From: a virus
Length of the DNA stretch: 64,000 bases
Virus record (IMG/VR): IMGVR_UViG_3300035034_002581
Reading direction: 5' to 3' (one strand)
Both the position numbers and the translations under genes were made by a program. Below the pieces are notes generated by a model, which saw only the letters and a list, made by a program, of their open reading frames with translations, did not search any database and was not told the DNA's origin. Shown piece by piece: positions 6,993-23,881 of the stretch (position 1 is its first letter; each line of letters starts with the position of its first letter).

Positions 6993-8918
6993 TTAGATAA
7001 TGTTAAGGTCGAGAACCGTAACTGTACCGTAGAAGTCGGCACGTACCATCTTCTTGCCGTATCTGGTCATAACACCTTTACGTGGTGTGAAGTCTTCCGG
7101 AGCGAAGATTGTTGGTGTCACGATGAGTGGGACATACGGAGCATAGACGTATCCAGTCTCGAGGTATGAACCGCCCTTGTAACCAACAAGGATCTTCTGG
7201 CGTGGGAAGTATGGGTCCTTGTAGACCGTGAATCTGTTAGTAAGTGTACCAACGGATTCTGCACCAATGCTGAATGGCGCGCCAACCTGTCCCATTCCAT
7301 CGATTGAAAGCTGCGGCTTGTAAAGCACGGAGGACTCAAGGATGGTGCAGATGTCAGGTGAAGTCACGATGAAGTTCGCGGAACCTCGAAGTGTCTTTCT
7401 GTGAATCTGGTTAGCAACGTCGATGATTGTCTCAGTTAGCGTCTCGTACCATTCGCGGACGTTACCGGTGAATGTAGGACCTGTTGCAAGTGTGCTAGAA
7501 AGATTCTGGACTACGCCATTTGTCTTGTTAACGAACTTACCAGGAGCACGTGACCAGTAGAAGTTTGCACCACGAGCTTCAGTTAGAAGGTCGTTGAGGA
7601 TCTCACGGTCGATCTCAAGAGCAATCTGCTCAGAAAGAATCTGTGTAAGTTCAACTTCTGCGTCGAGGCTGTGGTACGCGTTGAGGTCCTGAGCAAGCTC
7701 TGGAGACCAACGAGCACGTAGCTTACGAGTTGTTGCTGTAACGGCAATTGACTCAACCTTGATGTCGATTTCAGGAATCTGTGGCGATGGTGAAGTCGCG
7801 AAGTCAGACTCGAAACTTGGGATAGTGAGCGTTGAAGCATCACTGTCTACATCAAGGGATGCACCGATTGCGTAAGAACCTGTGAGACCAACAGCAGCAG
7901 TAGTGTTAGCAGCCTTCTCCGGAACATAAGCACCGGAGACGACAACTAGAATCGCAGCGCCTGTATCAGAACGCCCAACTAGTGGGTTAGGTGTGAAGAC
8001 TCCGCCTGTGTACGTACCAAGCTGGTTGAGACGACGTAGGTTAAGAATGTTCTTGCCACCCTGGAAGGTGTCTGTAAGAGGTGTGAGACCTGCAGTAGTT
8101 GGAGCTTCTGAGAATACGGAGAAGTCCTTGATGTTACTAAGGTCAACATCAGATCCAATCTGGTTAAGGTTGAACACGAGGAACTGCCAGCGGCCAGATG
8201 CGTCATAAGTACCATCTGCTGCGTCTTCTTCGATTAGCGTACCAATCTGCGGGTCGAACATTGTAAGACGACCGTCTGTACCAGTTGCGTGCATCGAAGC
8301 ACCACCAGTAAGCGTCTGTCCAACACCCCAAGAACCAGAAGCAAGAAGCGCGAGCTCATTGCCAGTAGTTGTTGCGTGTACCTTCGAGAACGTAGAACCT
8401 ACGAGGTCGTACTGTCCACCAGTTGCAAGTGAACCGGAACGAACACCCTTGCCTGTTGGAGAGTTGTAAATCGACTGACCTGCACGGTAAGTCTCTGCCG
8501 ACGCAGCGCCTTCAGCACCAGTCTGGAGACTTGCGTCACCACCGACATTTGTACCATACGTGTAGTCAAGGTAGAATAGGAGGCCAGATGGAAGGCTCAT
8601 TGGCTGAATTGAGACGAGCTCATTCGCTACGAGACCACCGAAAACACGACGAACGATTGGGAACGCAATGTTACTGAATCCTCTGATGTCGCCAGATCCT
8701 GTTCCGCCACCACCGCCAGTTGACAATGTGCTGGTTTCTCTAAGAAGCTGAGACGCCTGGTTTTCAAGGAGACGCGACATAACTTCGCGCTTCTCTTCCT
8801 TTAGGTTACGAAGAAGACCTGTACGGCTCCACTTCTCAACCAATCGCTGACCACCATTTCTTAGGTGACGAGAGCGAATACCCTCAGTCAGCTGCTCTAA
8901 TGTAAAATCTTTACCCAT
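6993..8918 (-). CDS. Major capsid protein (T4 gp23 family)
   Basis: A 641-aa ORF. The segments IVRRVFGGLVANELVSIQPMSLPSGLLFYL, ELAQDLNAYHSLDAEVELTQILSEQIALEIDREILN and YKGGSYLETGYVYAPYVPL...TRYG align to the remembered gp23 blocks (VRRAIPNLIAFDICGVQPMNSPTGQVFAL; ELAQDLRAVHGMDADAELSGILATEIMLEINREVVD; GYKGPNEMDAGIYYAPYVAL...TRYG). Confidence 0.85.
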   Translation of the reverse strand: MGKDFTLEQLTEGIRSRHLRNGGQRLVEKWSRTGLLRNLKEEKREVMSRLLENQASQLLRETSTLSTGGGGGTGSGDIRGFSNIAFPIVRRVFGGLVANELVSIQPMSLPSGLLFYLDYTYGTNVGGDASLQTGAEGAASAETYRAGQSIYNSPTGKGVRSGSLATGGQYDLVGSTFSKVHATTTGNELALLASGSWGVGQTLTGGASMHATGTDGRLTMFDPQIGTLIEEDAADGTYDASGRWQFLVFNLNQIGSDVDLSNIKDFSVFSEAPTTAGLTPLTDTFQGGKNILNLRRLNQLGTYTGGVFTPNPLVGRSDTGAAILVVVSGAYVPEKAANTTAAVGLTGSYAIGASLDVDSDASTLTIPSFESDFATSPSPQIPEIDIKVESIAVTATTRKLRARWSPELAQDLNAYHSLDAEVELTQILSEQIALEIDREILNDLLTEARGANFYWSRAPGKFVNKTNGVVQNLSSTLATGPTFTGNVREWYETLTETIIDVANQIHRKTLRGSANFIVTSPDICTILESSVLYKPQLSIDGMGQVGAPFSIGAESVGTLTNRFTVYKDPYFPRQKILVGYKGGSYLETGYVYAPYVPLIVTPTIFAPEDFTPRKGVMTRYGKKMVRADFYGTVTVLDLNII

Positions 8919-13602: not shown

Positions 13603-14492
13603 TACAAGCCCTCCTCTGTAATTGTACGATTGAGATGTGAAATCGTCAAGAACCTTGTGATTGTACTGTCGTCAATCTGGTCTGTTGATACACTCTTTAC
13701 GTCGTTAATAACTCTGTCTGCTTTTGCATTAAGAACTGCATTGTTTTCTCGAATCAAGTAGTCGCCAAGCGTCGTTAATGTATCTGTCCTTACGGATTCT
13801 AGCATTTCTCTAAGCTCAGACTTGTTTTCATTTTCACTTGATAGAACGTATGCACGAAGAATCTTTTTCTGATCTTCGTTAAGGGACGATTGATATTTCT
13901 TGTCAATCTTCTCAGACATGATTCGAATGACCAATTTGTCAGCGTCGGGATTTGTCATGTTTTCAATGTTAGGCTGTTGTACTTTTTCTTTGATTAGCCA
14001 TGTTCTAACCTTTTCTTCAAATTCAGCAATTCTAGTAAAGTTGCGACTTTCGTTTAGAGATCTCCAGTCATTTAAAAGAATTTGAATTGTCGCATACATT
14101 CTGTATTCTGGCAAATGCCTTTTATAGAATGTCTCTCGGATCAGATTGTGATTGACACTATGAATCAAGCTTGTCTTTTCAGATGATAGTTTCTTTTGAT
14201 CTATTGTCTGTGCGTATTCTCTAGCCTCTGAGAGGATTGTATTAGCTATTGACGGTGACGATGCTGTTGTCTTTACTAATGCATTGAATAGACGAAACTC
14301 CTTGTATAATTCAGAGCTTTTCTTAAAATGACGCTTGACAATTGACATTGCAACATCTGCTTCTTGCTGCTTATTTTCTACAATGCAGCTCGAGACATGC
14401 CTAAGAAGAAGCTCATAAATGATGCCAACATTTCTTTTTTTATTGTGCTTAATCATTAGTGTCTTCACTCTCCGTGTTATTACCCTCAGCAT
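13602..14492 (-). CDS. Hypothetical head assembly protein
   Basis: A 296-aa ORF between the portal and protease genes. No motif. Confidence 0.4.
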   Translation of the reverse strand: MLRVITRRVKTLMIKHNKKRNVGIIYELLLRHVSSCIVENKQQEADVAMSIVKRHFKKSSELYKEFRLFNALVKTTASSPSIANTILSEAREYAQTIDQKKLSSEKTSLIHSVNHNLIRETFYKRHLPEYRMYATIQILLNDWRSLNESRNFTRIAEFEEKVRTWLIKEKVQQPNIENMTNPDADKLVIRIMSEKIDKKYQSSLNEDQKKILRAYVLSSENENKSELREMLESVRTDTLTTLGDYLIRENNAVLNAKADRVINDVKSVSTDQIDDSTITRFLTISHLNRTITEEGL

Positions 14493-17400
14493 CAGATTCA
14501 GTAATAATACTTCGGGGCGCCTTCTTACTTATCTCTTTCTTAAGTGATTTTAACGTTGACTTTAGAGATAGTGATATTCTAGCTTGTTGTTTGACACTTC
14601 TATTGAGGAATGCGTCAAAAGGATCTTCTCTGCCGACAATCTCTTTCATCGGATCTATTTGATTAAGGCGATGTGTATCATAAGGATCTGTCAAAGAATC
14701 GCCAGGCCTCTCGTGATTTACCATACGCTTAAAATCAGGGATTCCTGTCTTTTCTGGGCCATGAGTCTTTCTTCTCTTTCTATTTTTAAGAACTTTGTCC
14801 AATTGAGCTTGTGCTTTAATTGGTGCATCGCCATCATTAATTGAGTAAGTAAACTCTTCATCAGTGTCATCGTCGTCTTCGTCTATTAGAGTAAGACCCT
14901 TTATGGTTTGTGATGCAAAGAGATCATCATCAAGATCTCCATCATCTTCATCTCCGCCAGCGTCTTCTCCATCGGCAGGTTCTTCACCTTCCTCGCCTGG
15001 CTCTCCTTCGCCTTCTTCTCCAAAATCTTCGCCGCCGCCGCCTAGGCCTCCAAATCCTCCTCCACCACCGCCAGAGAAATCGTCGGATTCACCGCTAGTT
15101 TCTTGCGAGATACCTTCAATCTTAAGATCGGATGTCTTATCGTCAACGCGACCCTTTTCGATACGATCGATTTCATCATCTGTGAGGTTCATGATATTCT
15201 TTCGAATCCAATATCTGTCAACAACACCCTCAGGAGCGGATCCTGCTATTTCAAGTCGTGTTCTGTAGATTTCAAGCTTCTGTTGCTGCGCAACAGTTGA
15301 TGGATTGCATAGATTAAGCTCAAAGTCTAGAAGATCTTCACCTTCGTATCCATTTGAGTACAAGTGTATAATCGCAAGTTTATTAAGCTCAGAGATGACA
15401 GTTCTTTGTATTCTGTTGATTGTTCTTGAGAATCGAATATCTTCTTGGCTTAGTGTTGCCTTTGATCCGATAGCTTCATCGTATCCCAAGTAAGCCTTAG
15501 GAATCTTTAGCGCAGAAAATAGCTTCTTCTGGATGTACTCAACATCTTCAATTGCAGTTACGTTTGTGCCACCTGCTAGAGTCTCTATTTTTGATCCTCC
15601 TTCTCCACCTCTAGTTGGAATGAAGTAATCCTCATCGACTGAATTCTTTACAAAGATACCAGACGGTAGAGTCGTTCTTCCCGATGATGGTGTTAAGTTT
15701 TTGTCCTGACGAACTAATCCTTCTAGTGAATTAAGAGTTGATTCCTTGGAACCTTCTTGAATAGTCTGCATTGCAAAGTTGTGTCTGTCGTCTTGACCGT
15801 CCGGACCCACTACGGTCATGCAATAGACATCTTCGTTTTTGTAGACTTCTTCAACTCTAGACACACTGTGATTCTTGTACTCAATCTCTCCTTCTGACAT
15901 AAGTGCTCTGAGCTCTGTCCAATTATTGCAAACACCATTTCGCTTGAATGCATTTATAATTGCAGCAGAGCTAAAAAGATCAGGATCTCGTCTATTTTCA
16001 CTGTTAGCAACAGCTAGATCTTCAATTAGCGTTTTGTTGTTTCTAATGGCTTCCGTGAGATTTTCTCTTGTTAGCCTTGGGTTTGTTTGAGCCTTATGAA
16101 TAGAAAACTCTACGATTGATGCAGGTATGTTCCATGACATGTTATTGCATCTATTACGACTGTGTATTTTATCATTCCAGTAGCTTGACTGAACCTTACT
16201 TCTGATTTCGTTATGTTGCTTGTGAAGTAGACTTCCATTGTACATTTTAGCCATGTTTTGGCCCTTGTTGTACTTCTTGTTATTCATTGAAACAAGATCG
16301 CGATGTGCCTGAGTTCTGTTTGCAGATGCATGATGTGCCTTGTGCTCGAACCATGTCATCGCCTGCAGATTTTCAGGTCTATTGTCCCACTTCTTATGAT
16401 TTACGTGATGGATCGTTTTGTTTTTAAGCTTTCTGTCGTGATCAATACACGCAGTTCTTGAAATTGCCTTGTGGGTATAAATAAACCTGCTTGTATGTGG
16501 ATCGTAGACCTGTTCGTAATCATCAACATAATCACCGTCAGATTTGTTACTTAGTCTTCTGTATAGCGGCATTAGTCGATCGCCCGCCGTAAGTTTATCA
16601 GCTCGCTTATTAGAACCATCCCTAAGTACAAACGGGTGCTCTGGTGCTGTCATGGCCCATGTATCATCATCAAGCCATACTTTAATTAACTTCTCTGCAG
16701 TATAGTTCTTACCACACCAAACTACTTTTCCTGGAACGATCCTCTGTGTATCGTCTTGAATTGAGTAAACCCAGTTTTCTTTACCTTCATCAAACTCTTT
16801 TGCAAGATCTTTGATAGTAATTGTTCTACCATCAAGTAGAGGAATTGGTGTCTTCGACCAGACAGGTAATGGGTTGTATCGTAAGTCGACTCTTCCTGTT
16901 TGACTGTCGACAACTTGGTTACTTCTTAGTATTGTCTTAGCTTGCTCCATGTAGTTAGGAACATCTTCTGGTGGCACATTTCCGACGTCAACGTAGAAGA
17001 CTCTTCGCTCTGGAGATCTAACAACTCTATAGACTAGCATAGCGTCTTCAATGAGTATTAGTTGTCGCCAAATTCTTCTTGCTGACTCTAAGACTGATGT
17101 ACCGTATGGCAAGAATGCATCATTACCCAGAAGCCTAAAGTGTGTGATCTGCCAGTTTTCGAGAATAGTGTTTCCGTTTGTGATCCACCTAAACCTTACA
17201 GCCATCGGATCTTGTGGATCGTACCCTTCTTCTCTTTCTATTTCGTTAACAGGAATTGGGAATACGTTAAGCACCCCATATTCTGGCGACACGTCATTAA
17301 ACAAGAAGAAATCGCCGTGTTTAACCATGTCTCTTGACCAGGGTGTCAAGTTGAATTCAACATTTAGTGTGTCGTAGAATAGCTCTTCGAGCAGTCTCTG

Positions 17401-17730
17401 AATCTGCCTGTTTTCAGAATAGACAGTTAGCACTCTACCTTTGTCATCGTTAGCAACAGTCTCTTCAGAGTAAATGTCGAGTGCACTTGCAATTTCTGGT
17501 GTGTACTCCATCTCTGCATAGTCACTATATCTTGACATTCTATCATAAGTGCCGTAAGCACTCATTGCTGTACTGTAACTTGTGCTCAGAGACTTCTTAA
17601 AAACTTGATTAGCTGACGAGACCGAAGGCTCTTTAAATGCTTTGACTTTTCTCTTAATGACTGGACCGCTTCGAAACAGCGTTGTGAGTCTCTGAAATAG
17701 ATTTTGATTATCTTCTTTGGCCACTTTCAA
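14449..17730 (-). CDS. Portal protein (gp20 family) interrupted by an intein of about 405 aa, with a Gly-rich/acidic C-terminal extension
   Basis: A 1093-aa ORF. LIEDAMLVYRVVRSPERRVFYVDVGNVPPEDVPNYMEQ aligns to T4 gp20 [37 protein letters not shown]. The downstream extein EDYFIPTRGGE...IETLAGGTNVTAIEDVEYIQKKLFSALKIPKAYLG aligns to EDYWLQRRDGK...[36 protein letters not shown], leaving an insertion of about 405 aa. Confidence 0.8.
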   Translation of the reverse strand: MKVAKEDNQNLFQRLTTLFRSGPVIKRKVKAFKEPSVSSANQVFKKSLSTSYSTAMSAYGTYDRMSRYSDYAEMEYTPEIASALDIYSEETVANDDKGRVLTVYSENRQIQRLLEELFYDTLNVEFNLTPWSRDMVKHGDFFLFNDVSPEYGVLNVFPIPVNEIEREEGYDPQDPMAVRFRWITNGNTILENWQITHFRLLGNDAFLPYGTSVLESARRIWRQLILIEDAMLVYRVVRSPERRVFYVDVGNVPPEDVPNYMEQAKTILRSNQVVDSQTGRVDLRYNPLPVWSKTPIPLLDGRTITIKDLAKEFDEGKENWVYSIQDDTQRIVPGKVVWCGKNYTAEKLIKVWLDDDTWAMTAPEHPFVLRDGSNKRADKLTAGDRLMPLYRRLSNKSDGDYVDDYEQVYDPHTSRFIYTHKAISRTACIDHDRKLKNKTIHHVNHKKWDNRPENLQAMTWFEHKAHHASANRTQAHRDLVSMNNKKYNKGQNMAKMYNGSLLHKQHNEIRSKVQSSYWNDKIHSRNRCNNMSWNIPASIVEFSIHKAQTNPRLTRENLTEAIRNNKTLIEDLAVANSENRRDPDLFSSAAIINAFKRNGVCNNWTELRALMSEGEIEYKNHSVSRVEEVYKNEDVYCMTVVGPDGQDDRHNFAMQTIQEGSKESTLNSLEGLVRQDKNLTPSSGRTTLPSGIFVKNSVDEDYFIPTRGGEGGSKIETLAGGTNVTAIEDVEYIQKKLFSALKIPKAYLGYDEAIGSKATLSQEDIRFSRTINRIQRTVISELNKLAIIHLYSNGYEGEDLLDFELNLCNPSTVAQQQKLEIYRTRLEIAGSAPEGVVDRYWIRKNIMNLTDDEIDRIEKGRVDDKTSDLKIEGISQETSGESDDFSGGGGGGFGGLGGGGEDFGEEGEGEPGEEGEEPADGEDAGGDEDDGDLDDDLFASQTIKGLTLIDEDDDDTDEEFTYSINDGDAPIKAQAQLDKVLKNRKRRKTHGPEKTGIPDFKRMVNHERPGDSLTDPYDTHRLNQIDPMKEIVGREDPFDAFLNRSVKQQARISLSLKSTLKSLKKEISKKAPRSIITESDAEGNNTESEDTND
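15643..16857 (-). mobile_element. Intein with an HNH homing endonuclease domain inside the portal gene
   Basis: Hint block A-like SIQDDTQRIV / LLDGRTITIKDL and block B TAPEHPF are present. The HNH motif IHHVNHKKWDNRPENLQAMTWFEHKAHH sits at nt 16330-16413. Block F is DVYCMTVV...RHNF. The C-terminus GIFVKN is followed by Ser+1 (SVDEDYF). The boundaries are accurate only to a few residues. Confidence 0.6.
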
Positions 17731-18319
17731 TTTCCTTTATGAAGCTTGAAACTTCACTTTGAGGCATGTCACCTAAGTCTTTGTAGGGTTCTGGTGTAAT
17801 ATAGGACTCACTAGCAAATCTGCCGAGTTTCTTTCCTACTTCACTCTCATCGTTGTCTAAAATTGCAATAATTTTCATACTAAGTGAATACAGCCAGTTT
17901 GTAAGGTGTTTTGGATTATTTGTAAAGACAGCAAGTACTGCTTTTCCTAAGTTTGCAATTTTAATTGCATCAAAGATTCCCTCTACAATATACACTGTCT
18001 GTGTAGAAGGTGTAATAGTTTCCAGCCCCCAAACACCAATCTTCTTGCCCTTCCCTTCGTCTCCTAAGAAGGTAAAATAGCGTCCAGCTTTAGGATCATT
18101 GTTTTGTGATTTAGAAGCACCAGGCCTATATTGTTGATATCCAACTAGTTGACCCGAAGAATTGTAAAGCAAGAAAGCTGCTGTGTTTTCTTCTTCACTA
18201 ACTATTACACGTGTCTTGCTAGTATCGACGCCTCTTTCTTTAAGATTGTCAGAAACACTTATTGACTCAAGAGTAATCTTTATAAGTTCTCTCAACATAG
18301 TGCTACCTCTTTTTATCAA
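17708..18319 (-). CDS. Stand-alone Toprim-domain protein
   Basis: A 203-aa ORF. YIVEGIFDAIKI is the Toprim Glu motif and IIAILDNDESEVGKK is the DxD motif. There is no zinc finger and no helicase domain. Confidence 0.45.
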   Translation of the reverse strand: MIKRGSTMLRELIKITLESISVSDNLKERGVDTSKTRVIVSEEENTAAFLLYNSSGQLVGYQQYRPGASKSQNNDPKAGRYFTFLGDEGKGKKIGVWGLETITPSTQTVYIVEGIFDAIKIANLGKAVLAVFTNNPKHLTNWLYSLSMKIIAILDNDESEVGKKLGRFASESYITPEPYKDLGDMPQSEVSSFIKEIESGQRR

Positions 18320-20713: not shown

Positions 20714-23700
20714 TTATTCGTAAACAACCTTGGCATCCTTTCCTTCCCATGTGATGTCAATAACATTGTCTACAACATCCTTGACTCCGTCAACATGAGT
20801 AATGATAATGATGTTCTTGAACCACTTTTTGAGAGAGACTAGAAGCCTATTGCATGCCTCTACGTTTACATCATCTAGAGAACCAAACCCCTCGTCAATA
20901 ATTAGCATGTCTGTTTTAGGAAGAGAAGAGATGTTGATTAACGCAACACGAATGGCGAGAGAAGAGATCATCTTTTCCATTCCAGATGCTACTTCAATGA
21001 CCCTCTTGCTGTCGCCGTAGTTAATATAGACATCCATTGAGTTTGAATTTGGATCTGCTTCAAGCTCAACTGTAAACGAAACAACGCCTTGAAGAATTTT
21101 AGAAACTTCAGCATTAATAACTGGCAATTGAGACATGATTATCTGAAGAGGGAGACCTCGCTTAGAGACAGCCTGAATGAAGTATTCATAGATTCTCCAC
21201 TTCTGCTTAAGTTTTTGATACTTGGATTTCTCACTCTTAAGATTTTGTAGTGTGACTTCAAGCCGTCCAATTGAACTTGCACACGATATTCTCTTTGCAT
21301 CCTTTGACGAGATTAAACTTTTCTCTTCGTAGAGTCTTGCCTTTAAATTATTAAGCTCTTGATCAATGTCACTGTCAACCATTTTAGACTTAAGATCTTC
21401 TAGATCTTGCTCACTCTGTGTGATTTTGCTTTCAAGGCTTTCAATGTCTCTTTTGATTGACTTAGCATTGCTTTGATTTTGCGTCAATTCAATTTTAAGT
21501 GTTGACTCCATTCGCATGATCTTTTCGTACTTATCAATCTTGTCTTCAAGGTCTTCACTCATGACTTGATCAAACTGTTCTTGAGCATTTTCAATATGCT
21601 CAAGAAGTGCCTTAATCTTCTCTTCTTGTGCTTCTATTTTTTGCTTATCTTTGTGGGAGTCCTTGATGAACTTGCACATTGGAAAAGAGTCACCACAGGG
21701 TACGTCCTTAAGCTTTGCAACAGATCTTAACTGTGACTTAAGGAGGGTTTGTTCTTTTTCATGAGAGTGCTTGATTTGTACTAGAGACGCACCTAGTGCT
21801 CTTTGATTTTTAAGTGATGCTTTAAGATCTTCAATAGAAGTAGACTCTTTGACTTCTTGGATCTTCTTGATTTTGACTTCTAGATTTTCAATTTTCTCAA
21901 AGATTGCATTTCGTCTAGTGATAAGGTTTTCTAGACTCTTCTTTGCAGAATCTGTAAGTGTCTGCTGTCTTTCAACATCAGCACACGTTACAACATCAGC
22001 GTTTTCAAACTTGCTTAGTTTAATCTGCAGTTTCTGTTCATCGAGTCTCATTTCAGAGAGTTCATCTTCGATACTGTTAACTCTACTCGACAAATCCTTG
22101 ATTTCATTTTTTGCTTCGTGAATCAATGAATCCCAATCACGATCTGGTGCAGATTTAACTTTAGTCTGTATCTCTCTTGACTCTTCTTTTGCAAGATTAA
22201 ACAGATTTTCAAATATGTCAAGGCCCAAAAACCTTGTAAGCATGTGCTTTCTAGCAGTGCTACGCTGCTTGATAAATGCGTTTATCTCACCCTGTGATGC
22301 GAGTGAAGTTAGCAAGAAATCATCTGATGTGCCGAACTTTTCACGCAGATCCCTTTCAGTTACACGCCTCTGCTCTTTACTTAAATCAGCAAGCTCATTT
22401 CCATTGTTATCAATCTTAAAGATATTGAGATGTGTTAAAGCCGATTCGTGACCCTTTGCGTTCTTGTTTTTGACAGACTGTCTCTCAACCCTAAGCAGGT
22501 TTTCACCTTGCTGTATTGTTGCCTTAGCACGGCAATAGTCTTTTCTGGTATTGATTACGTGTAGGTTTTTAATAGGACCACGATCTGTTGTGTTAAACAG
22601 ACAGTACATTAATGCACCTACAATTGATGACTTACCTCGAGCATTTCTACCAAAGATTCCCGTTATGCCATTCATTGAGTCAAAGTCAATGACGTTTCCC
22701 TTGCCATAAGAGAAAGTGTTATCAAACTCAAGTTTCTTAACTGACCACTTATGATTTCTTGACAACGAACCTGATCGTGATATTGACTTGACATAACTTC
22801 TCGTTAGTGCCTCAAGATCGTTCCAGTCTTTCTCAGAGAGCGATGACTCTTTAAAATACTCTTCAAGTAGGTTGACAATCACATCGGGATCTTTGAGATC
22901 GTTCTTAAAGAGAGTAACAGCCTCAGTTGAAATTTGTTGTGTATCTACAAGTCGTTCATCCTTAGATACAACTTCTGATGGTGCTTTTAGAATTTCTAGT
23001 TCATTACACAGTTGCTTCCACTCAACTGACGGGATCGATTCTTTTGTGCGTATCCTGACTCTTGAGCCGTCTTTAAGATCTTTGAGTGCCTTAAGTGTTT
23101 TCTGGACATTCCCTTCCCAGTTTACTGTAACAAACGGCTTAGGGCCTTCGACTTTATGAAAGTTAACATCAAAGTCATCTTTGTCCCTAATATCCCAAAG
23201 CAGATACCCTTTGTTTGTATCCTCTCCGTAGTTTTGCTGAACTGTGCTTCCACAGTAAGCAACTGTCTTCTTTGGGTTAAGAAACTGGACTTTGTGGATG
23301 TCACCGAGTAGAGCAAAATCGAATCTTTCAAAGAAGTTTACGTCAACTTCTCCTTCAATATGCCAGTCAATATCAGTAGTTGAACCAAGCACTCCACCGT
23401 GAAATAGTGCTATGTTAATGTCCCCAGGTTTTGGGCGGACTTTACTCCAATTATCTTCATCGAAGCAAGAAAAAACGTTCCAGCTGAACCCTGGAATACC
23501 TATTGGATACGTTCCTGACTCTTTATAGAGTTTGATATTTGGATGGCTAAGTGCTGTGATAATCGGAGTGATTGTGTCTTGGCGATCTTTGTTTAGTAGA
23601 ATACCATCGTGATTTCCAAGAATGACTTCTGTTGGAGCAATATTTGCAAAGCCTGTAAACATCCATACAAGTGCATCAATAAGCTCTGGAGAGATTCCTT

Positions 23701-23881
23701 GAGTTTTGCTATGAACAATATCGCCGCCAATGTAAATGATATCGGGTTTTTGTTCACGAAGCATTTCAAAAATCTTACTAAAGACTTCACGATACTCTTT
23801 GTGTCGTGTCAATCCACGCCAGTGTATGTCTGCAAAGTGTGCAATCCTGACATTTTTCTTTTCGCTCTTCATGTTTGTCAC
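20714..23881 (-). CDS. Fused Mre11-like nuclease / Rad50-like ATPase (SbcD-SbcC, gp47-gp46 equivalents in a single polypeptide)
   Basis: A 1055-aa ORF. The N-terminal calcineurin-like phosphoesterase motifs are FADIHW, GGDIVH, GNHDG, ALFHGG and GDIHK. It then has the Rad50 Walker A GIFGRNARGKSSIVGAL, a coiled-coil region of about 400 aa with a central PCGDSFPMC Cys pair (a possible zinc hook), the signature/Walker B SSLAIRVAL...MLIIDEGFGSLD, and the H-loop IIIITHVDG. Confidence 0.75.
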   Translation of the reverse strand: MTNMKSEKKNVRIAHFADIHWRGLTRHKEYREVFSKIFEMLREQKPDIIYIGGDIVHSKTQGISPELIDALVWMFTGFANIAPTEVILGNHDGILLNKDRQDTITPIITALSHPNIKLYKESGTYPIGIPGFSWNVFSCFDEDNWSKVRPKPGDINIALFHGGVLGSTTDIDWHIEGEVDVNFFERFDFALLGDIHKVQFLNPKKTVAYCGSTVQQNYGEDTNKGYLLWDIRDKDDFDVNFHKVEGPKPFVTVNWEGNVQKTLKALKDLKDGSRVRIRTKESIPSVEWKQLCNELEILKAPSEVVSKDERLVDTQQISTEAVTLFKNDLKDPDVIVNLLEEYFKESSLSEKDWNDLEALTRSYVKSISRSGSLSRNHKWSVKKLEFDNTFSYGKGNVIDFDSMNGITGIFGRNARGKSSIVGALMYCLFNTTDRGPIKNLHVINTRKDYCRAKATIQQGENLLRVERQSVKNKNAKGHESALTHLNIFKIDNNGNELADLSKEQRRVTERDLREKFGTSDDFLLTSLASQGEINAFIKQRSTARKHMLTRFLGLDIFENLFNLAKEESREIQTKVKSAPDRDWDSLIHEAKNEIKDLSSRVNSIEDELSEMRLDEQKLQIKLSKFENADVVTCADVERQQTLTDSAKKSLENLITRRNAIFEKIENLEVKIKKIQEVKESTSIEDLKASLKNQRALGASLVQIKHSHEKEQTLLKSQLRSVAKLKDVPCGDSFPMCKFIKDSHKDKQKIEAQEEKIKALLEHIENAQEQFDQVMSEDLEDKIDKYEKIMRMESTLKIELTQNQSNAKSIKRDIESLESKITQSEQDLEDLKSKMVDSDIDQELNNLKARLYEEKSLISSKDAKRISCASSIGRLEVTLQNLKSEKSKYQKLKQKWRIYEYFIQAVSKRGLPLQIIMSQLPVINAEVSKILQGVVSFTVELEADPNSNSMDVYINYGDSKRVIEVASGMEKMISSLAIRVALINISSLPKTDMLIIDEGFGSLDDVNVEACNRLLVSLKKWFKNIIIITHVDGVKDVVDNVIDITWEGKDAKVVYE

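What the first reader, a model, noticed from the sequence alone, without database searches (positions are those of the whole stretch)
15643..16857. HNH-endonuclease intein inside the portal protein
Alignment of the portal to T4 gp20 leaves an insertion of about 405 aa between ...NPLPVWSK and EDYFIPTRGGE. The insertion carries Hint blocks A, B, F and G and a canonical HNH motif (HHVNHKKWDNRPENLQAMTWFEHKAHH). It ends in ...GIFVKN followed by Ser. The penultimate residue is Lys rather than His, and the F-to-G spacer is long (about 40 aa). This could be an atypical or weakened splicing site. The portal is essential, so splicing must occur for virion assembly.
Basis: partly seen in the sequence, partly recalled or inferred. 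Interest (0 to 1): 0.6.

Follow-up and report, generated by a model that had tools for sequence, protein, structure and literature searches.

The report
Proline-first HNH intein in phage portal
The phage portal gene really is interrupted by a self-splicing protein element (an intein carrying an HNH homing nuclease), but it starts with proline and keeps an internal cysteine, so it most likely splices by the rare "class 3" route rather than being a weakened ordinary intein.

Summary
The finding is real. The 1093-codon ORF at 14449..17730 (-) is a T4 gp20-type portal interrupted by an intein with an HNH nuclease domain.

Five intein-less alleles read RYNPL|SVDEDYF, so the intein is Pro289..Asn696 (408 aa, window 15643..16866). 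It starts with Pro, not with Ser292.

I extracted 230 inteins from 120 homologous portals.
- All 86 that start with Pro have Cys at block F position 4.
- Of the 143 Cys1/Ser1 inteins, 105 have the usual Asp there.
- No Pro1 intein has a penultimate His.

This matches how class 3 inteins work (prototype: mycobacteriophage Bethlehem, also Pro1). An internal Cys attacks the N-terminal junction and passes the N-extein to Ser+1. Asn696 then cyclises.

The canonical Trp-Cys-Thr signature is not met; the window has Phe-Cys-Val. The nuclease is HNH rather than LAGLIDADG, and the host protein is a portal. I therefore call it class-3-like: a new variant of a known kind. Splicing itself is inferred, not shown.

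The Lys penultimate residue is normal for this clade. The 37-aa F-G spacer belongs to a small sub-lineage.

Seen in passing: this portal family has at least 15 intein insertion sites, and some homologues carry six inteins.

The parts
14449..17730 (-). Portal precursor ORF (T4 gp20 type). It is 1093 codons from TTG at 17730. The likely true start is GTG at 17724, giving 1091 aa and 124.1 kDa.
   Evidence: An AAGGA ribosome-binding site lies 8 nt upstream of GTG 17724, and homologues begin MAKEDN....
16867..17724 (-). N-extein, ending ...GRVDLRYNPL (Leu288 is residue -1).
   Evidence: Alignment with intein-less alleles P0031, P0058, P0093, P0104 and P0115. The DNA junction was compared with L001.
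15643..16866 (-). Intein, Pro289..Asn696, 408 aa, 47.2 kDa.
   Evidence: Pfam Intein_splicing. AlphaFold2 model with mean pLDDT 80.5. The top 50 Foldseek PDB matches are all inteins or intein-like domains.
16828..16866 (-). Block A, PVWSKTPIPLLDG. Pro1 is a non-nucleophile. Thr6, Ile8, Pro9 and Gly13 have the same spacing as in the class 3 prototype (PLALNTEVPTPSG).
   Evidence: Pro1 in 85 of 85 distinct Pro-type inteins, at three different portal sites. The prototype sequence was read from AY500153 gp11.
16714..16716 (-). Cys339 (intein Cys51, preceded by Trp50). It is invariant only in Pro1-type inteins. Its role is unknown; it could be structural, a redox partner, or an alternative nucleophile.
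   Evidence: Cys in 82 of 83 Pro1-type inteins, against Ala in 24 of 25 Cys1/Cys-F:4 relatives. For comparison, Cys48 of Msm DnaBi1 pairs with the catalytic Cys.
16624..16665 (-). Block B. His365 is B:10 and Phe367 is B:12, the position that is Trp in canonical class 3 inteins.
   Evidence: His in 83 of 83. B:12 is Phe or Tyr in all 49 Pro1 inteins tabulated. hhalign places HPF opposite HGW of the prototype.
16330..16425 (-). HNH nuclease core, IHHVNHKKWDNRPENLQAMTWFEHKAHH (His441, His442, Asn454, His463, His467).
   Evidence: Pfam HNH_3 and PHROG HNH endonuclease families. These residues are invariant among 15 sequences that are 42-61% identical to the window.
15775..15831 (-). Block F, DVYCMTVVGPDGQDDRHNF. 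Cys637 is F:4, the proposed initiating nucleophile. A clade-specific 6-aa insertion and a DRHNF motif follow it.
   Evidence: Cys at F:4 in 86 of 86 Pro1 inteins, against Asp in 105 of 143 Cys1/Ser1 inteins of the same portals. In a wider set of 237 proteins it is Cys in 160 of 160.
15664..15774 (-). F-G spacer of 37 aa, with a predicted short helix and low model confidence.
15640..15663 (-). Block G plus residue +1: SGIFVKN|S. Val694 is G:5, Lys695 is G:6, Asn696 is G:7, and Ser697 is +1.
14449..15642 (-). C-extein, starting SVDEDYFIPTRGGE. The ligated portal is predicted to be 683 aa and 77.0 kDa.
   Evidence: The spliced sequence aligns without a gap to T4 gp20 across the junction (HNM|SMTEDYW; E 1e-27).

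Best explanation
The insertion is an active, mobile intein that interrupts the portal at the conserved motif RYNPL|SVDEDYF. It consists of a Hint splicing domain split by an HNH homing endonuclease.

Residue 1 is proline, so the usual first step (an N-to-S/O acyl shift by residue 1) is impossible. I infer that it splices as class 3 inteins do:
1. Cys637 (block F position 4), helped by His365 (block B position 10), attacks the Leu288-Pro289 peptide bond. The N-extein is then held on a thioester branch.
2. The N-extein is passed to the side chain of Ser697 (+1).
3. Asn696 cyclises and releases the 47-kDa intein. No penultimate His assists this step. The invariant DRH of block F may help instead, but that is speculation.
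4. An O-to-N shift yields the 77-kDa portal reading ...RYNPLSVDEDYF...

At the DNA level, the HNH nuclease would cut intein-less portal alleles during co-infection and copy the intein in.

**Shown:** the Hint fold, the exact boundaries, the conservation pattern, and the existence of intein-less alleles.
**Inferred:** splicing itself, the identity of the nucleophile, and homing.
For: **Intein identity**
- Pfam finds Intein_splicing, HNH_3 and a split Portal_T4.
- A profile of 15 relatives matches solved inteins by sequence (Pab PolC intein, E 1.6e-4).
- The AlphaFold2 model has mean pLDDT 80.5 and pTM 0.65. Its top 50 Foldseek PDB matches are all inteins or intein-like domains.

**Boundaries**
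- Five intein-less alleles read RYNPL|SVDEDYF.
- One of them lies in the same TerL-portal-protease context.
- The same PV-x-x-x-T-x-I-P-LLDG start follows the extein directly at two other portal sites, RNL|P...N|CKYGDFF and GGQF|P...N|TGD.

**Mechanism**
- Pro1 co-occurs with Cys at F:4 in 86 of 86 inteins.
- Cys1/Ser1 inteins in the same proteins have Asp there in 105 of 143.
- In a wider set the Pro1/Cys-F:4 link holds in 160 of 160.
- His B:10, Asn or Gln at G:7, and a Ser, Thr or Cys at +1 are all conserved.

**Published precedent**
- The class 3 prototype also starts with Pro1 and needs Cys at F:4 absolutely: the C320A and C320S mutants are dead.
- It tolerates Trp-to-Phe at B:12, with about half splicing at 30 C and over 90% at 15 C.
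- It tolerates loss of Thr G:5 and of the penultimate His (PMC2807308).

**HNH domain**
- The catalytic residues are invariant among 15 divergent relatives.
Against: - No experiment: no splicing products and no branched intermediate have been observed.
- Two of the three canonical class 3 signature residues are absent. B:12 is Phe or Tyr, never Trp. G:5 is Val, Leu or Ile; it is Thr in 1 of 85.
- hhalign finds no specific similarity to the prototype beyond block B (probability under 1%). The window intein is only 23% identical to the prototype over the splicing domain.
- 25 Cys1 inteins of the same family also carry Cys at F:4. That Cys could therefore have a non-nucleophilic role.
- A second clade-specific invariant, Cys51, is an untested alternative.
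- I could not read model coordinates, so the distance from Cys637 to the scissile bond was not measured.
Confidence: 0.75

Rival explanations
1. It is an ordinary class 1 intein that begins at Ser292. Ser292 would make the first acyl shift, and the mature portal would keep three extra residues (Pro-Val-Trp).
For: Ser292 lies near the junction and Ser is a legitimate class 1 nucleophile. GIFVKN|S looks like a block G.
Against: - That position is Ser in only 10 of 85 related inteins and Lys in 48.
- Intein-less alleles have no PVW.
- The P-V-x-x motif travels with the intein to two other insertion sites.
- Class 1 inteins in the same proteins have Asp at F:4, not Cys.
Confidence: 0.02
2. It splices by a class 2-like route. 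Ser697 (+1) would attack the Leu288-Pro289 amide directly, as Cys+1 does in archaeal KlbA inteins. Cys637 would only assist.
For: There is no nucleophile at residue 1. Class 2 is the other known solution to that problem.
Against: - Known class 2 inteins have Ala1 and Cys+1, and lack the class 3 Trp-Cys-Thr triplet. In the class 2 Mja KlbA intein an Asp (Asp147) helps activate Cys+1.
- The 86 of 86 link between Pro1 and Cys at F:4 is the class 3 pattern.
- A Ser hydroxyl attacking an X-Pro amide directly is chemically unfavourable. This last point is my own knowledge.
Confidence: 0.07
3. A different internal cysteine starts the reaction. Cys339 (intein Cys51, in the invariant Trp-Cys-Gly-Lys-Asn-Tyr motif) would be the initiating nucleophile. 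Alternatively, it would be an obligatory redox partner that gates splicing.
For: - Cys51 is invariant in Pro1-type inteins (82 of 83) and is Ala in their Cys1 relatives (24 of 25). It therefore tracks Pro1 more tightly than Cys at F:4 does.
- In the class 3 Msm DnaBi1 intein, a non-block Cys48 forms a disulfide with the catalytic Cys and is essential.
Against: - F:4 is the experimentally established nucleophile position in class 3, and it lies at the active-site centre.
- Cys51 does not align with DnaBi1 Cys48. By my alignment via MP-Be it sits about 9 residues earlier.
- Its position in the model could not be inspected.
Confidence: 0.06
4. It is a degenerate or domesticated insertion that no longer splices. 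It would either stay in the mature portal as an extra domain, or make this portal allele non-functional.
For: - The penultimate residue is not His.
- The F-G spacer is unusually long.
- The window comes from an uncultured genome.
- No expression data exist.
Against: - All catalytic positions are intact and conserved across hundreds of variants.
- The ORF is uninterrupted over 3.3 kb.
- The insertion splits the most conserved portal motif. T4 gp20 aligns across that motif without a gap.
- The HNH catalytic residues are invariant.
- The long spacer is conserved in a sub-lineage.
- The portal is essential in tailed phages; this is established knowledge.
Confidence: 0.07

Closest known systems
Class 3 inteins. 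[quoted passage not shown] Other examples are Msm/Mle DnaB-1, Dra Snf2 and actinophage TerL/Cas4 inteins.
   Same: - Pro at position 1, with no N-terminal nucleophile.
- Invariant Cys at block F position 4.
- His at B:10, and Ser or Thr at +1.
- The same block A spacing (P1, T6, [VI]8, P9, G13).
- A phage setting.
- Cys1 relatives that keep the F:4 Cys also exist, as I recall for class 3 (Tori & Perler 2011; that paper is not held here).
   Different: - The Trp-Cys-Thr signature is not met. B:12 is Phe or Tyr and G:5 is Val, Leu or Ile.
- The penultimate residue is never His.
- There is a 6-aa insertion in block F, and a clade-specific Trp50-Cys51.
- The nuclease is HNH, not LAGLIDADG.
- The host is a structural portal protein, not a P-loop ATPase or Cas4.
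- Members at site 133 have Cys at +1.
- No specific sequence similarity was detectable.
Class 1 portal-protein inteins of actinobacteriophages (cluster C1 mycobacteriophages; Kelley 2016, Gosselin 2025).
   Same: Inteins in phage portal genes. Non-His penultimate residues are common in phage inteins.
   Different: As far as the two surveys show, those are in a different portal family (InterPro IPR009279), and the class 3 actinophage inteins were found in only four extein types, the ones named being Cas4, terminase, helicase and minor capsid. I infer from this that the portal inteins there are class 1 with Cys1 or Ser1. Here the intein has Pro1 with Cys at F:4 and an HNH nuclease, in a T4 gp20-type portal.
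Cys1 inteins at the same portal site (for example P0083: CISLKT...EDTGCITV...IYLHN|S).
   Same: - Same insertion point.
- About 40% identical over the splicing domain.
- They also carry Cys at F:4 and Trp50.
- They group with the Pro1 clade in a neighbour-joining tree (82% bootstrap).
   Different: They have Cys1, a penultimate His and Ala51, and they lack the block F insertion.
Class 2 (KlbA) inteins.
   Same: They lack an N-terminal nucleophile.
   Different: Ala1, Cys+1, no Trp-Cys-Thr triplet, archaeal.

Membership tests
Intein (Hint splicing domain) | Hint fold with blocks A, B, F and G | tested here: met
   Pfam PF14890 scores 41.7-44.9 bits against a cut-off of 35.8. The AlphaFold2 model (pLDDT 80.5) matches only inteins or intein-like domains among the top 50 PDB hits. 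The profile matches the Pab PolC intein at E 1.6e-4.
Intein (Hint splicing domain) | Precise in-frame insertion whose removal restores a conserved host sequence, with intein-less alleles in existence | tested here: met
   RYNPL|SVDEDYF in P0031, P0058, P0093, P0104 and P0115. Same gene order in L001. Gap-free alignment to T4 gp20 across the junction.
Intein (Hint splicing domain) | Catalytic residues: His B:10, C-terminal Asn, and Ser, Thr or Cys at +1 | tested here: met
   His365, Asn696 and Ser697. These positions are conserved in 83 of 83, 83 of 85 (Gln in the other two) and all Pro-type relatives.
Intein (Hint splicing domain) | Self-catalysed protein splicing | not testable with these tools
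   Needs expression and mass spectrometry.
Class 3 inteins | Non-nucleophilic residue at position 1 | tested here: met
   Pro289. Pro in 85 of 85 clade members.
Class 3 inteins | Cys at block F position 4 | tested here: met
   Cys637. Cys in 86 of 86 and 160 of 160.
Class 3 inteins | Trp at block B position 12 | tested here: not met
   Phe367. Phe or Tyr in all 49 Pro1 inteins tabulated. hhalign places it opposite Trp67 of the prototype. The W67F mutant of the prototype still splices.
Class 3 inteins | Thr at block G position 5 | tested here: not met
   Val694. The clade has Val 40, Leu 34, Ile 5, Ser 4, Met 1, Thr 1.
Class 3 inteins | Ser or Thr at +1 | tested here: met
   Ser697. Clade members at site 133 have Cys at +1.
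Class 3 inteins | Thiol-labile branched intermediate on the F:4 Cys | not testable with these tools
   A biochemical assay is needed.
Class 1 inteins | Cys, Ser or Thr at position 1 | tested here: not met
   Pro289. Ser292 is not conserved.
Class 2 (KlbA) inteins | Ala1 with Cys+1 and no F:4 Cys | tested here: not met
   Pro1, Ser+1 and Cys at F:4.
HNH homing endonuclease | His-Asn-His catalytic motif | tested here: met
   HNH_3 scores 26.0 bits against a cut-off of 24.8 on the isolated intein, and 24.4 on the whole protein. PHROG HNH families match at 1e-10. His441, His442, Asn454, His463 and His467 are invariant. Cleavage activity was not tested.
T4 gp20-type portal | Portal_T4 domain, in a head-morphogenesis gene neighbourhood | tested here: met
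   Pfam 8e-71. T4 gp20 structures match at E 1e-27. The neighbours are TerL, a head maturation protease and a gp23-type capsid protein.

The most novel reading that the evidence does not exclude
The Pro1/Cys-F:4 portal inteins would be a separate, or very deeply diverged, lineage that uses class 3 chemistry with its own signature: Trp50-Cys51, Phe or Tyr at B:12, Cys at F:4 followed by a 6-aa insertion, DRHNF, and no penultimate His.

They would have arisen from Cys1 ancestors at this same portal site. Living intermediates (Cys1 plus Cys at F:4) would still occupy the site. The lineage would then have jumped to two further sites in the same protein, with +1 Ser, Cys or Thr.

That would provide a natural series for studying how an intein changes its nucleophile. 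Cys51 might also act as a redox switch on virion assembly.
Probability: 0.3. Interest if true: 0.65.

Novelty: new variant of a known kind. Interest (0 to 1): 0.5.

Why it matters
Class 3 inteins have been defined by a Trp-Cys-Thr signature. They have been reported almost only in helicase-like ATPases, terminases and Cas4 of actinobacteria and their phages.

A large environmental clade combines Pro1 and the block F Cys but lacks the Trp, the Thr and the penultimate His. It carries an HNH nuclease and sits in a structural protein. Three consequences follow.
- The sequence definition of class 3 would widen, and searches that rely on the Trp-Cys-Thr signature would be shown to miss members.
- Intein engineers would gain new scaffolds whose catalytic residues all lie near the C-terminus.
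- One insertion site holds Pro1, Cys1-with-F:4-Cys and Cys1-with-C-terminal-Gln inteins, which allows mechanisms to be compared in one extein context.

For annotation, portal ORFs of 1000-2900 aa in such phages should be read as a 680-aa portal plus one to six inteins.

Tried and rejected
- **PDB search with the single sequence**. It gave only spurious SET-domain hits with E above 0.3. A profile of 15 relatives was needed to reach inteins.
- **hhalign of that profile against the Bethlehem class 3 prototype**. Only 20 columns of block B aligned, at probability under 1%. This fixed which residue is B:12 but is not evidence of specific relatedness.
- **Locating the prototype.** The annotated DnaB-like gp62 of phage Bethlehem has no intein. 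The 'DnaB' intein is in gp11.
- **Neighbour-joining tree including the prototype.** Its position is unresolved: it joins the Pro1 clade in 23% of bootstraps. An earlier bootstrap run contained undefined distances and should be disregarded.
- **GenBank phage genomes** (INPHARED 2025). No cultured phage carries this intein. The only hit is an uncultured 484-kb phage, at 27% identity over the N-terminal half. The closest cultured portals are about 41-42% identical.
- **Search for the same intein type in other host proteins.** Of 117 new top cluster representatives, 115 are this portal family. One is a portal fragment. One (P0206) is a different protein with ordinary Cys1/Asp-F:4 HNH inteins.
- **Literature searches**. 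I found no description of class 3-type or HNH inteins in gp20-type portals. The Tori & Perler 2011 paper is not held.
- **Model coordinates.** They are not exposed, so distances from Cys637 and Cys339 to the junction could not be measured.
- **Other large ORFs in the window.** Ten were scanned with Pfam and none contained a further Hint domain.
Full report
**1. The observation**

The region lies in one long ORF on the minus strand, 14449..17730, 1093 codons from a TTG. A GTG at 17724 lies 8 nt downstream of an AAGGA ribosome-binding site. Homologues begin MAKEDN..., so the real product is probably 1091 aa.

Pfam finds three things:
- Portal_T4 at 8e-71, split into two stretches.
- Intein_splicing at 1.3e-10, above the curated cut-off.
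- HNH_3.

PHROGs agrees: portal protein plus HNH endonuclease. The neighbours are a terminase large subunit, a head maturation protease and a gp23-type capsid protein. This is a phage head module.

**2. Where the intein starts**

A search with the whole protein returned thousands of homologous portals. Five of the best 120 are about 630-690 aa long, have no insertion, and read ...GRVDLRYNPL|SVDEDYFIP.... The window reads ...RYNPL-PVWSKTPIPLLDG...SGIFVKN-SVDEDYFIP...

- Only one placement of the insert restores the intein-less sequence: Pro289..Asn696, 408 aa, window 15643..16866.
That position is Ser in only 10 of 85 related inteins and Lys in 48.
- The same N-terminal motif P-[VI]-x-x-x-[TS]-x-[IV]-P-L-L-D-G follows the extein directly at two other portal sites...RNL|P...N|CKYGDFF and ...GGQF|P...N|TGD....
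- The proline is therefore residue 1 of the element.
- One intein-less allele (P0031, 82% identical) lies on a contig with the same order: TerL, portal, a 281-aa gene, prohead protease. Its DNA junction is ...AATCCCTTG|AGCGTTGAT....
- The spliced protein aligns without a gap to T4 gp20 across the junction (T4 HNM|SMTEDYW; E 1e-27). The intein therefore splits the family's most conserved motif.

**3. Fold**

I built an alignment of the window intein, with 10 flanking residues on each side, and 14 relatives that are 42-61% identical to it.
- The AlphaFold2 model from this alignment has mean pLDDT 80.5 and pTM 0.65. The beta-rich N- and C-terminal parts are mostly above 85-90, and a helical middle domain lies between them.
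- The 50 best Foldseek matches in the PDB are all inteins or bacterial intein-like domains. They include PI-PfuI, Ssp DnaB, Npu DnaE and Mtu RecA.
- The sequence profile also reaches solved inteins (Pab PolC intein, E 1.6e-4).

**4. What kind of intein**

I aligned the 120 best portal homologues pairwise to an intein-less reference and extracted 230 inteins in 15 site groups. I then aligned their C-terminal parts. The table below gives residue 1 against block F position 4.

| Residue 1 | Cys at F:4 | Asp | Asn | Other | Total |
|---|---|---|---|---|---|
| Pro | 86 | 0 | 0 | 0 | 86 |
| Cys or Ser | 25 | 105 | 10 | 3 | 143 |

- In a wider set of 237 proteins, 160 of 160 Pro-type inteins with a detectable block F have Cys at F:4.
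- None of the 86 has a penultimate His. That position is hypervariable: Lys 28, Arg 13, Gly 8, Leu 8, Trp 6 and others.
- His B:10 is invariant. The C-terminal residue is Asn, or Gln in two. Residue +1 is Ser at site 286, Cys at site 133 and Thr at site 311.

Published work defines class 3 inteins by four features (PMC2807308, PMC5222942):
- a non-nucleophilic residue 1;
- a dispersed triplet of Trp B:12, Cys F:4 and Thr G:5;
- Ser or Thr at +1;
- attack of the F:4 Cys on the N-terminal junction, giving an extra branched intermediate.

The prototype, from mycobacteriophage Bethlehem, begins with Pro1. I read its sequence from the phage genome: gp11, PLALNTEVPTPSGW...SHGWTT...VKCIGID...ILTHN|T. 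Its block A has the same spacing as the window's: P1, T6, [VI]8, P9, G13.

**5. Membership against mechanism**

Two of the three triplet residues are not met here.
- hhalign places the window's HPF opposite the prototype's HGW. B:12 is therefore Phe367. B:12 is Phe or Tyr in all 49 Pro1 inteins tabulated for that position.
- G:5 is Val694. The clade has Val, Leu or Ile, with Thr in 1 of 85.

By the published signature this is not a canonical class 3 member. The mutational data on the prototype show that these departures are compatible with the chemistry:
- C320A and C320S are dead.
- W67F still gives roughly half splicing at 30 C and over 90% at 15 C, and W67Y splices at 15 C.
- Substitutions of Thr339 only make splicing temperature-dependent.
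- Mutating the penultimate His had minimal effect.

I therefore conclude that the element works like a class 3 intein, with confidence about 0.75. I call it class-3-like rather than filing it as a member.

**6. Relationships**

Identity of the window intein to other groups over the splicing domain:

| Group | Identity |
|---|---|
| Pro-type, site 286 | 62% |
| Pro-type, site 311 | 59% |
| Pro-type, site 133 | 50% |
| Cys1 with Cys at F:4, same site | 40% |
| Cys1 with C-terminal Gln, same site | 37% |
| Class 1 inteins at other portal sites | 27-36% |
| Bethlehem prototype | 23% |

- A crude neighbour-joining bootstrap (78 taxa, 136 columns) supports a Pro-type clade spanning all three sites at 89%.
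- It supports a larger clade of all F:4-Cys portal inteins at 82%.
- When the prototype is added, its position is unresolved.
- This fits a single origin of the F:4 Cys within the portal inteins, followed by movement among three sites. It cannot settle whether the clade is a divergent branch of canonical class 3 or a parallel invention.
- Clade-specific features are a 6-aa insertion after F:8, a DRHNF motif, and an invariant Trp50-Cys51.
- Cys51 (window Cys339) is Cys in 82 of 83 Pro-type inteins and Ala in 24 of 25 Cys1/Cys-F:4 relatives.
- In the class 3 Msm DnaBi1 intein, a non-block Cys48 forms a regulatory disulfide with the catalytic Cys and is essential (PMC6195587). By my alignment via the Bethlehem prototype the two positions do not align. 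The role of Cys51 is open and is kept as a rival or addition.

**7. The nuclease and mobility**

- The HNH core residues (His441, His442, Asn454, His463, His467) are invariant among the 15 aligned sequences.
- The intein's G+C content (0.40) equals that of the exteins and of the window. It is therefore not a recent arrival from a compositionally different source.
- The distribution is sporadic: close relatives lack it, and distant ones carry it.
- Unrelated inteins occupy the same site.
- Both patterns are what a homing element would give. Homing itself is inferred.

**8.

- A Lys penultimate residue is simply the commonest state in the clade.
- The F-G spacer of 37 aa is real; the clade median is 14. 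It is shared by P0002, P0004, P0009 and P0020, with a conserved S-L-x-x-x-V segment and a predicted short helix. I read it as a tolerated loop insertion, not decay.

**9. Novelty**

- No cultured phage in GenBank carries this intein.
- The library of papers contains no description of class 3-type or HNH inteins in gp20-type portals.
- Class 3 inteins were originally reported only in helicase-like proteins and terminases.
- In actinophages they occur in only four host proteins, the ones named being Cas4, terminase, helicase and minor capsid. The class 3 phylogeny described there uses LAGLIDADG-type nucleases.
- The representative-cluster search finds 3115 clusters at E no greater than 1e-3. Nearly all the top ones are portals of this family.
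- This is therefore a large environmental group without published description in the library I could search.
- My verdict is a new variant of a known kind. It should interest intein specialists. It is not a new principle.

**10. Beyond the window**

The portal family is an exceptional intein hotspot.
- It has at least 15 insertion sites.
- Homologues P0121 (2818 aa, found on three contigs) and P0124 (2930 aa) each have six inteins with intact termini.
- The published maximum I could find is five (PMC10710043).

Noticed in passing
Homologues of window 14449..17730; L004 3001..11457 (P0121): This portal family has at least 15 distinct intein insertion sites. Two homologues carry six inteins each. 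P0121 (2818 aa) has them at sites 63, 74, 133, 286, 311 and 344, and three of these are Pro1-type. P0124 (2930 aa) also has six. All have intact termini, and P0121 was seen on three contigs. The published maximum I found is five inteins in one protein.
   Followed up: partly
Homologues, at the same site as window 15643..16866: Three intein types compete for the same RYNPL|S site: Pro1 with Cys at F:4; Cys1 with Cys at F:4 and an HN ending; and Cys1 with Asn at F:4 and a C-terminal Gln. Asn at F:4 and the C-terminal Gln co-occur in 10 of 10, also at site 69.
   Followed up: partly
window 16714..16719 (-): Trp338-Cys339 (intein Trp50-Cys51) is invariant in Pro1-type inteins. The Cys is Ala in their Cys1 relatives. 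It may be a redox partner of Cys637, or structural. This was not tested.
   Followed up: partly
window 17708..18319 (-): A 203-aa ORF with a Toprim/primase-like domain lies between terL and the portal gene and overlaps the portal start (PHROG DNA primase 2e-32; Pfam Toprim_3 weak). The intein-less relative L001 has no gene there. It could be a primase fragment or another mobile insertion.
   Followed up: partly
window 20714..23881 (-): A 1055-aa ORF combines a Metallophos (Mre11-like) domain and an AAA_23 (Rad50-like) domain in one polypeptide. It looks like a fusion of the T4 gp47 and gp46 functions.
   Followed up: no
window 6993..8918 (-): The gp23-type major capsid protein is 641 aa, but the Pfam Gp23 match covers only residues 350-631. 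The N-terminal 350 aa or so are unexplained. No Hint domain was found there.
   Followed up: no
window 14850..15150 (-): The portal's C-terminal region contains a Gly-rich and then strongly acidic low-complexity stretch (GGGGGGFGGLGGGGEDFGEEGEGEPGEEGEE...). G+C rises locally to about 0.50. Intein-less homologues have the same stretch.
   Followed up: no
window 17724..17730 (-): The mechanical ORF start is TTG at 17730. GTG at 17724, preceded by AAGGA, is the more plausible start. The JGI gene call (P0001, 1038 aa) starts further downstream.
   Followed up: yes
L004 1..336: An IS605 OrfB/TnpB-like gene (Cas12f1-like_TNB) lies a few genes upstream of the six-intein portal on that contig.
   Followed up: no
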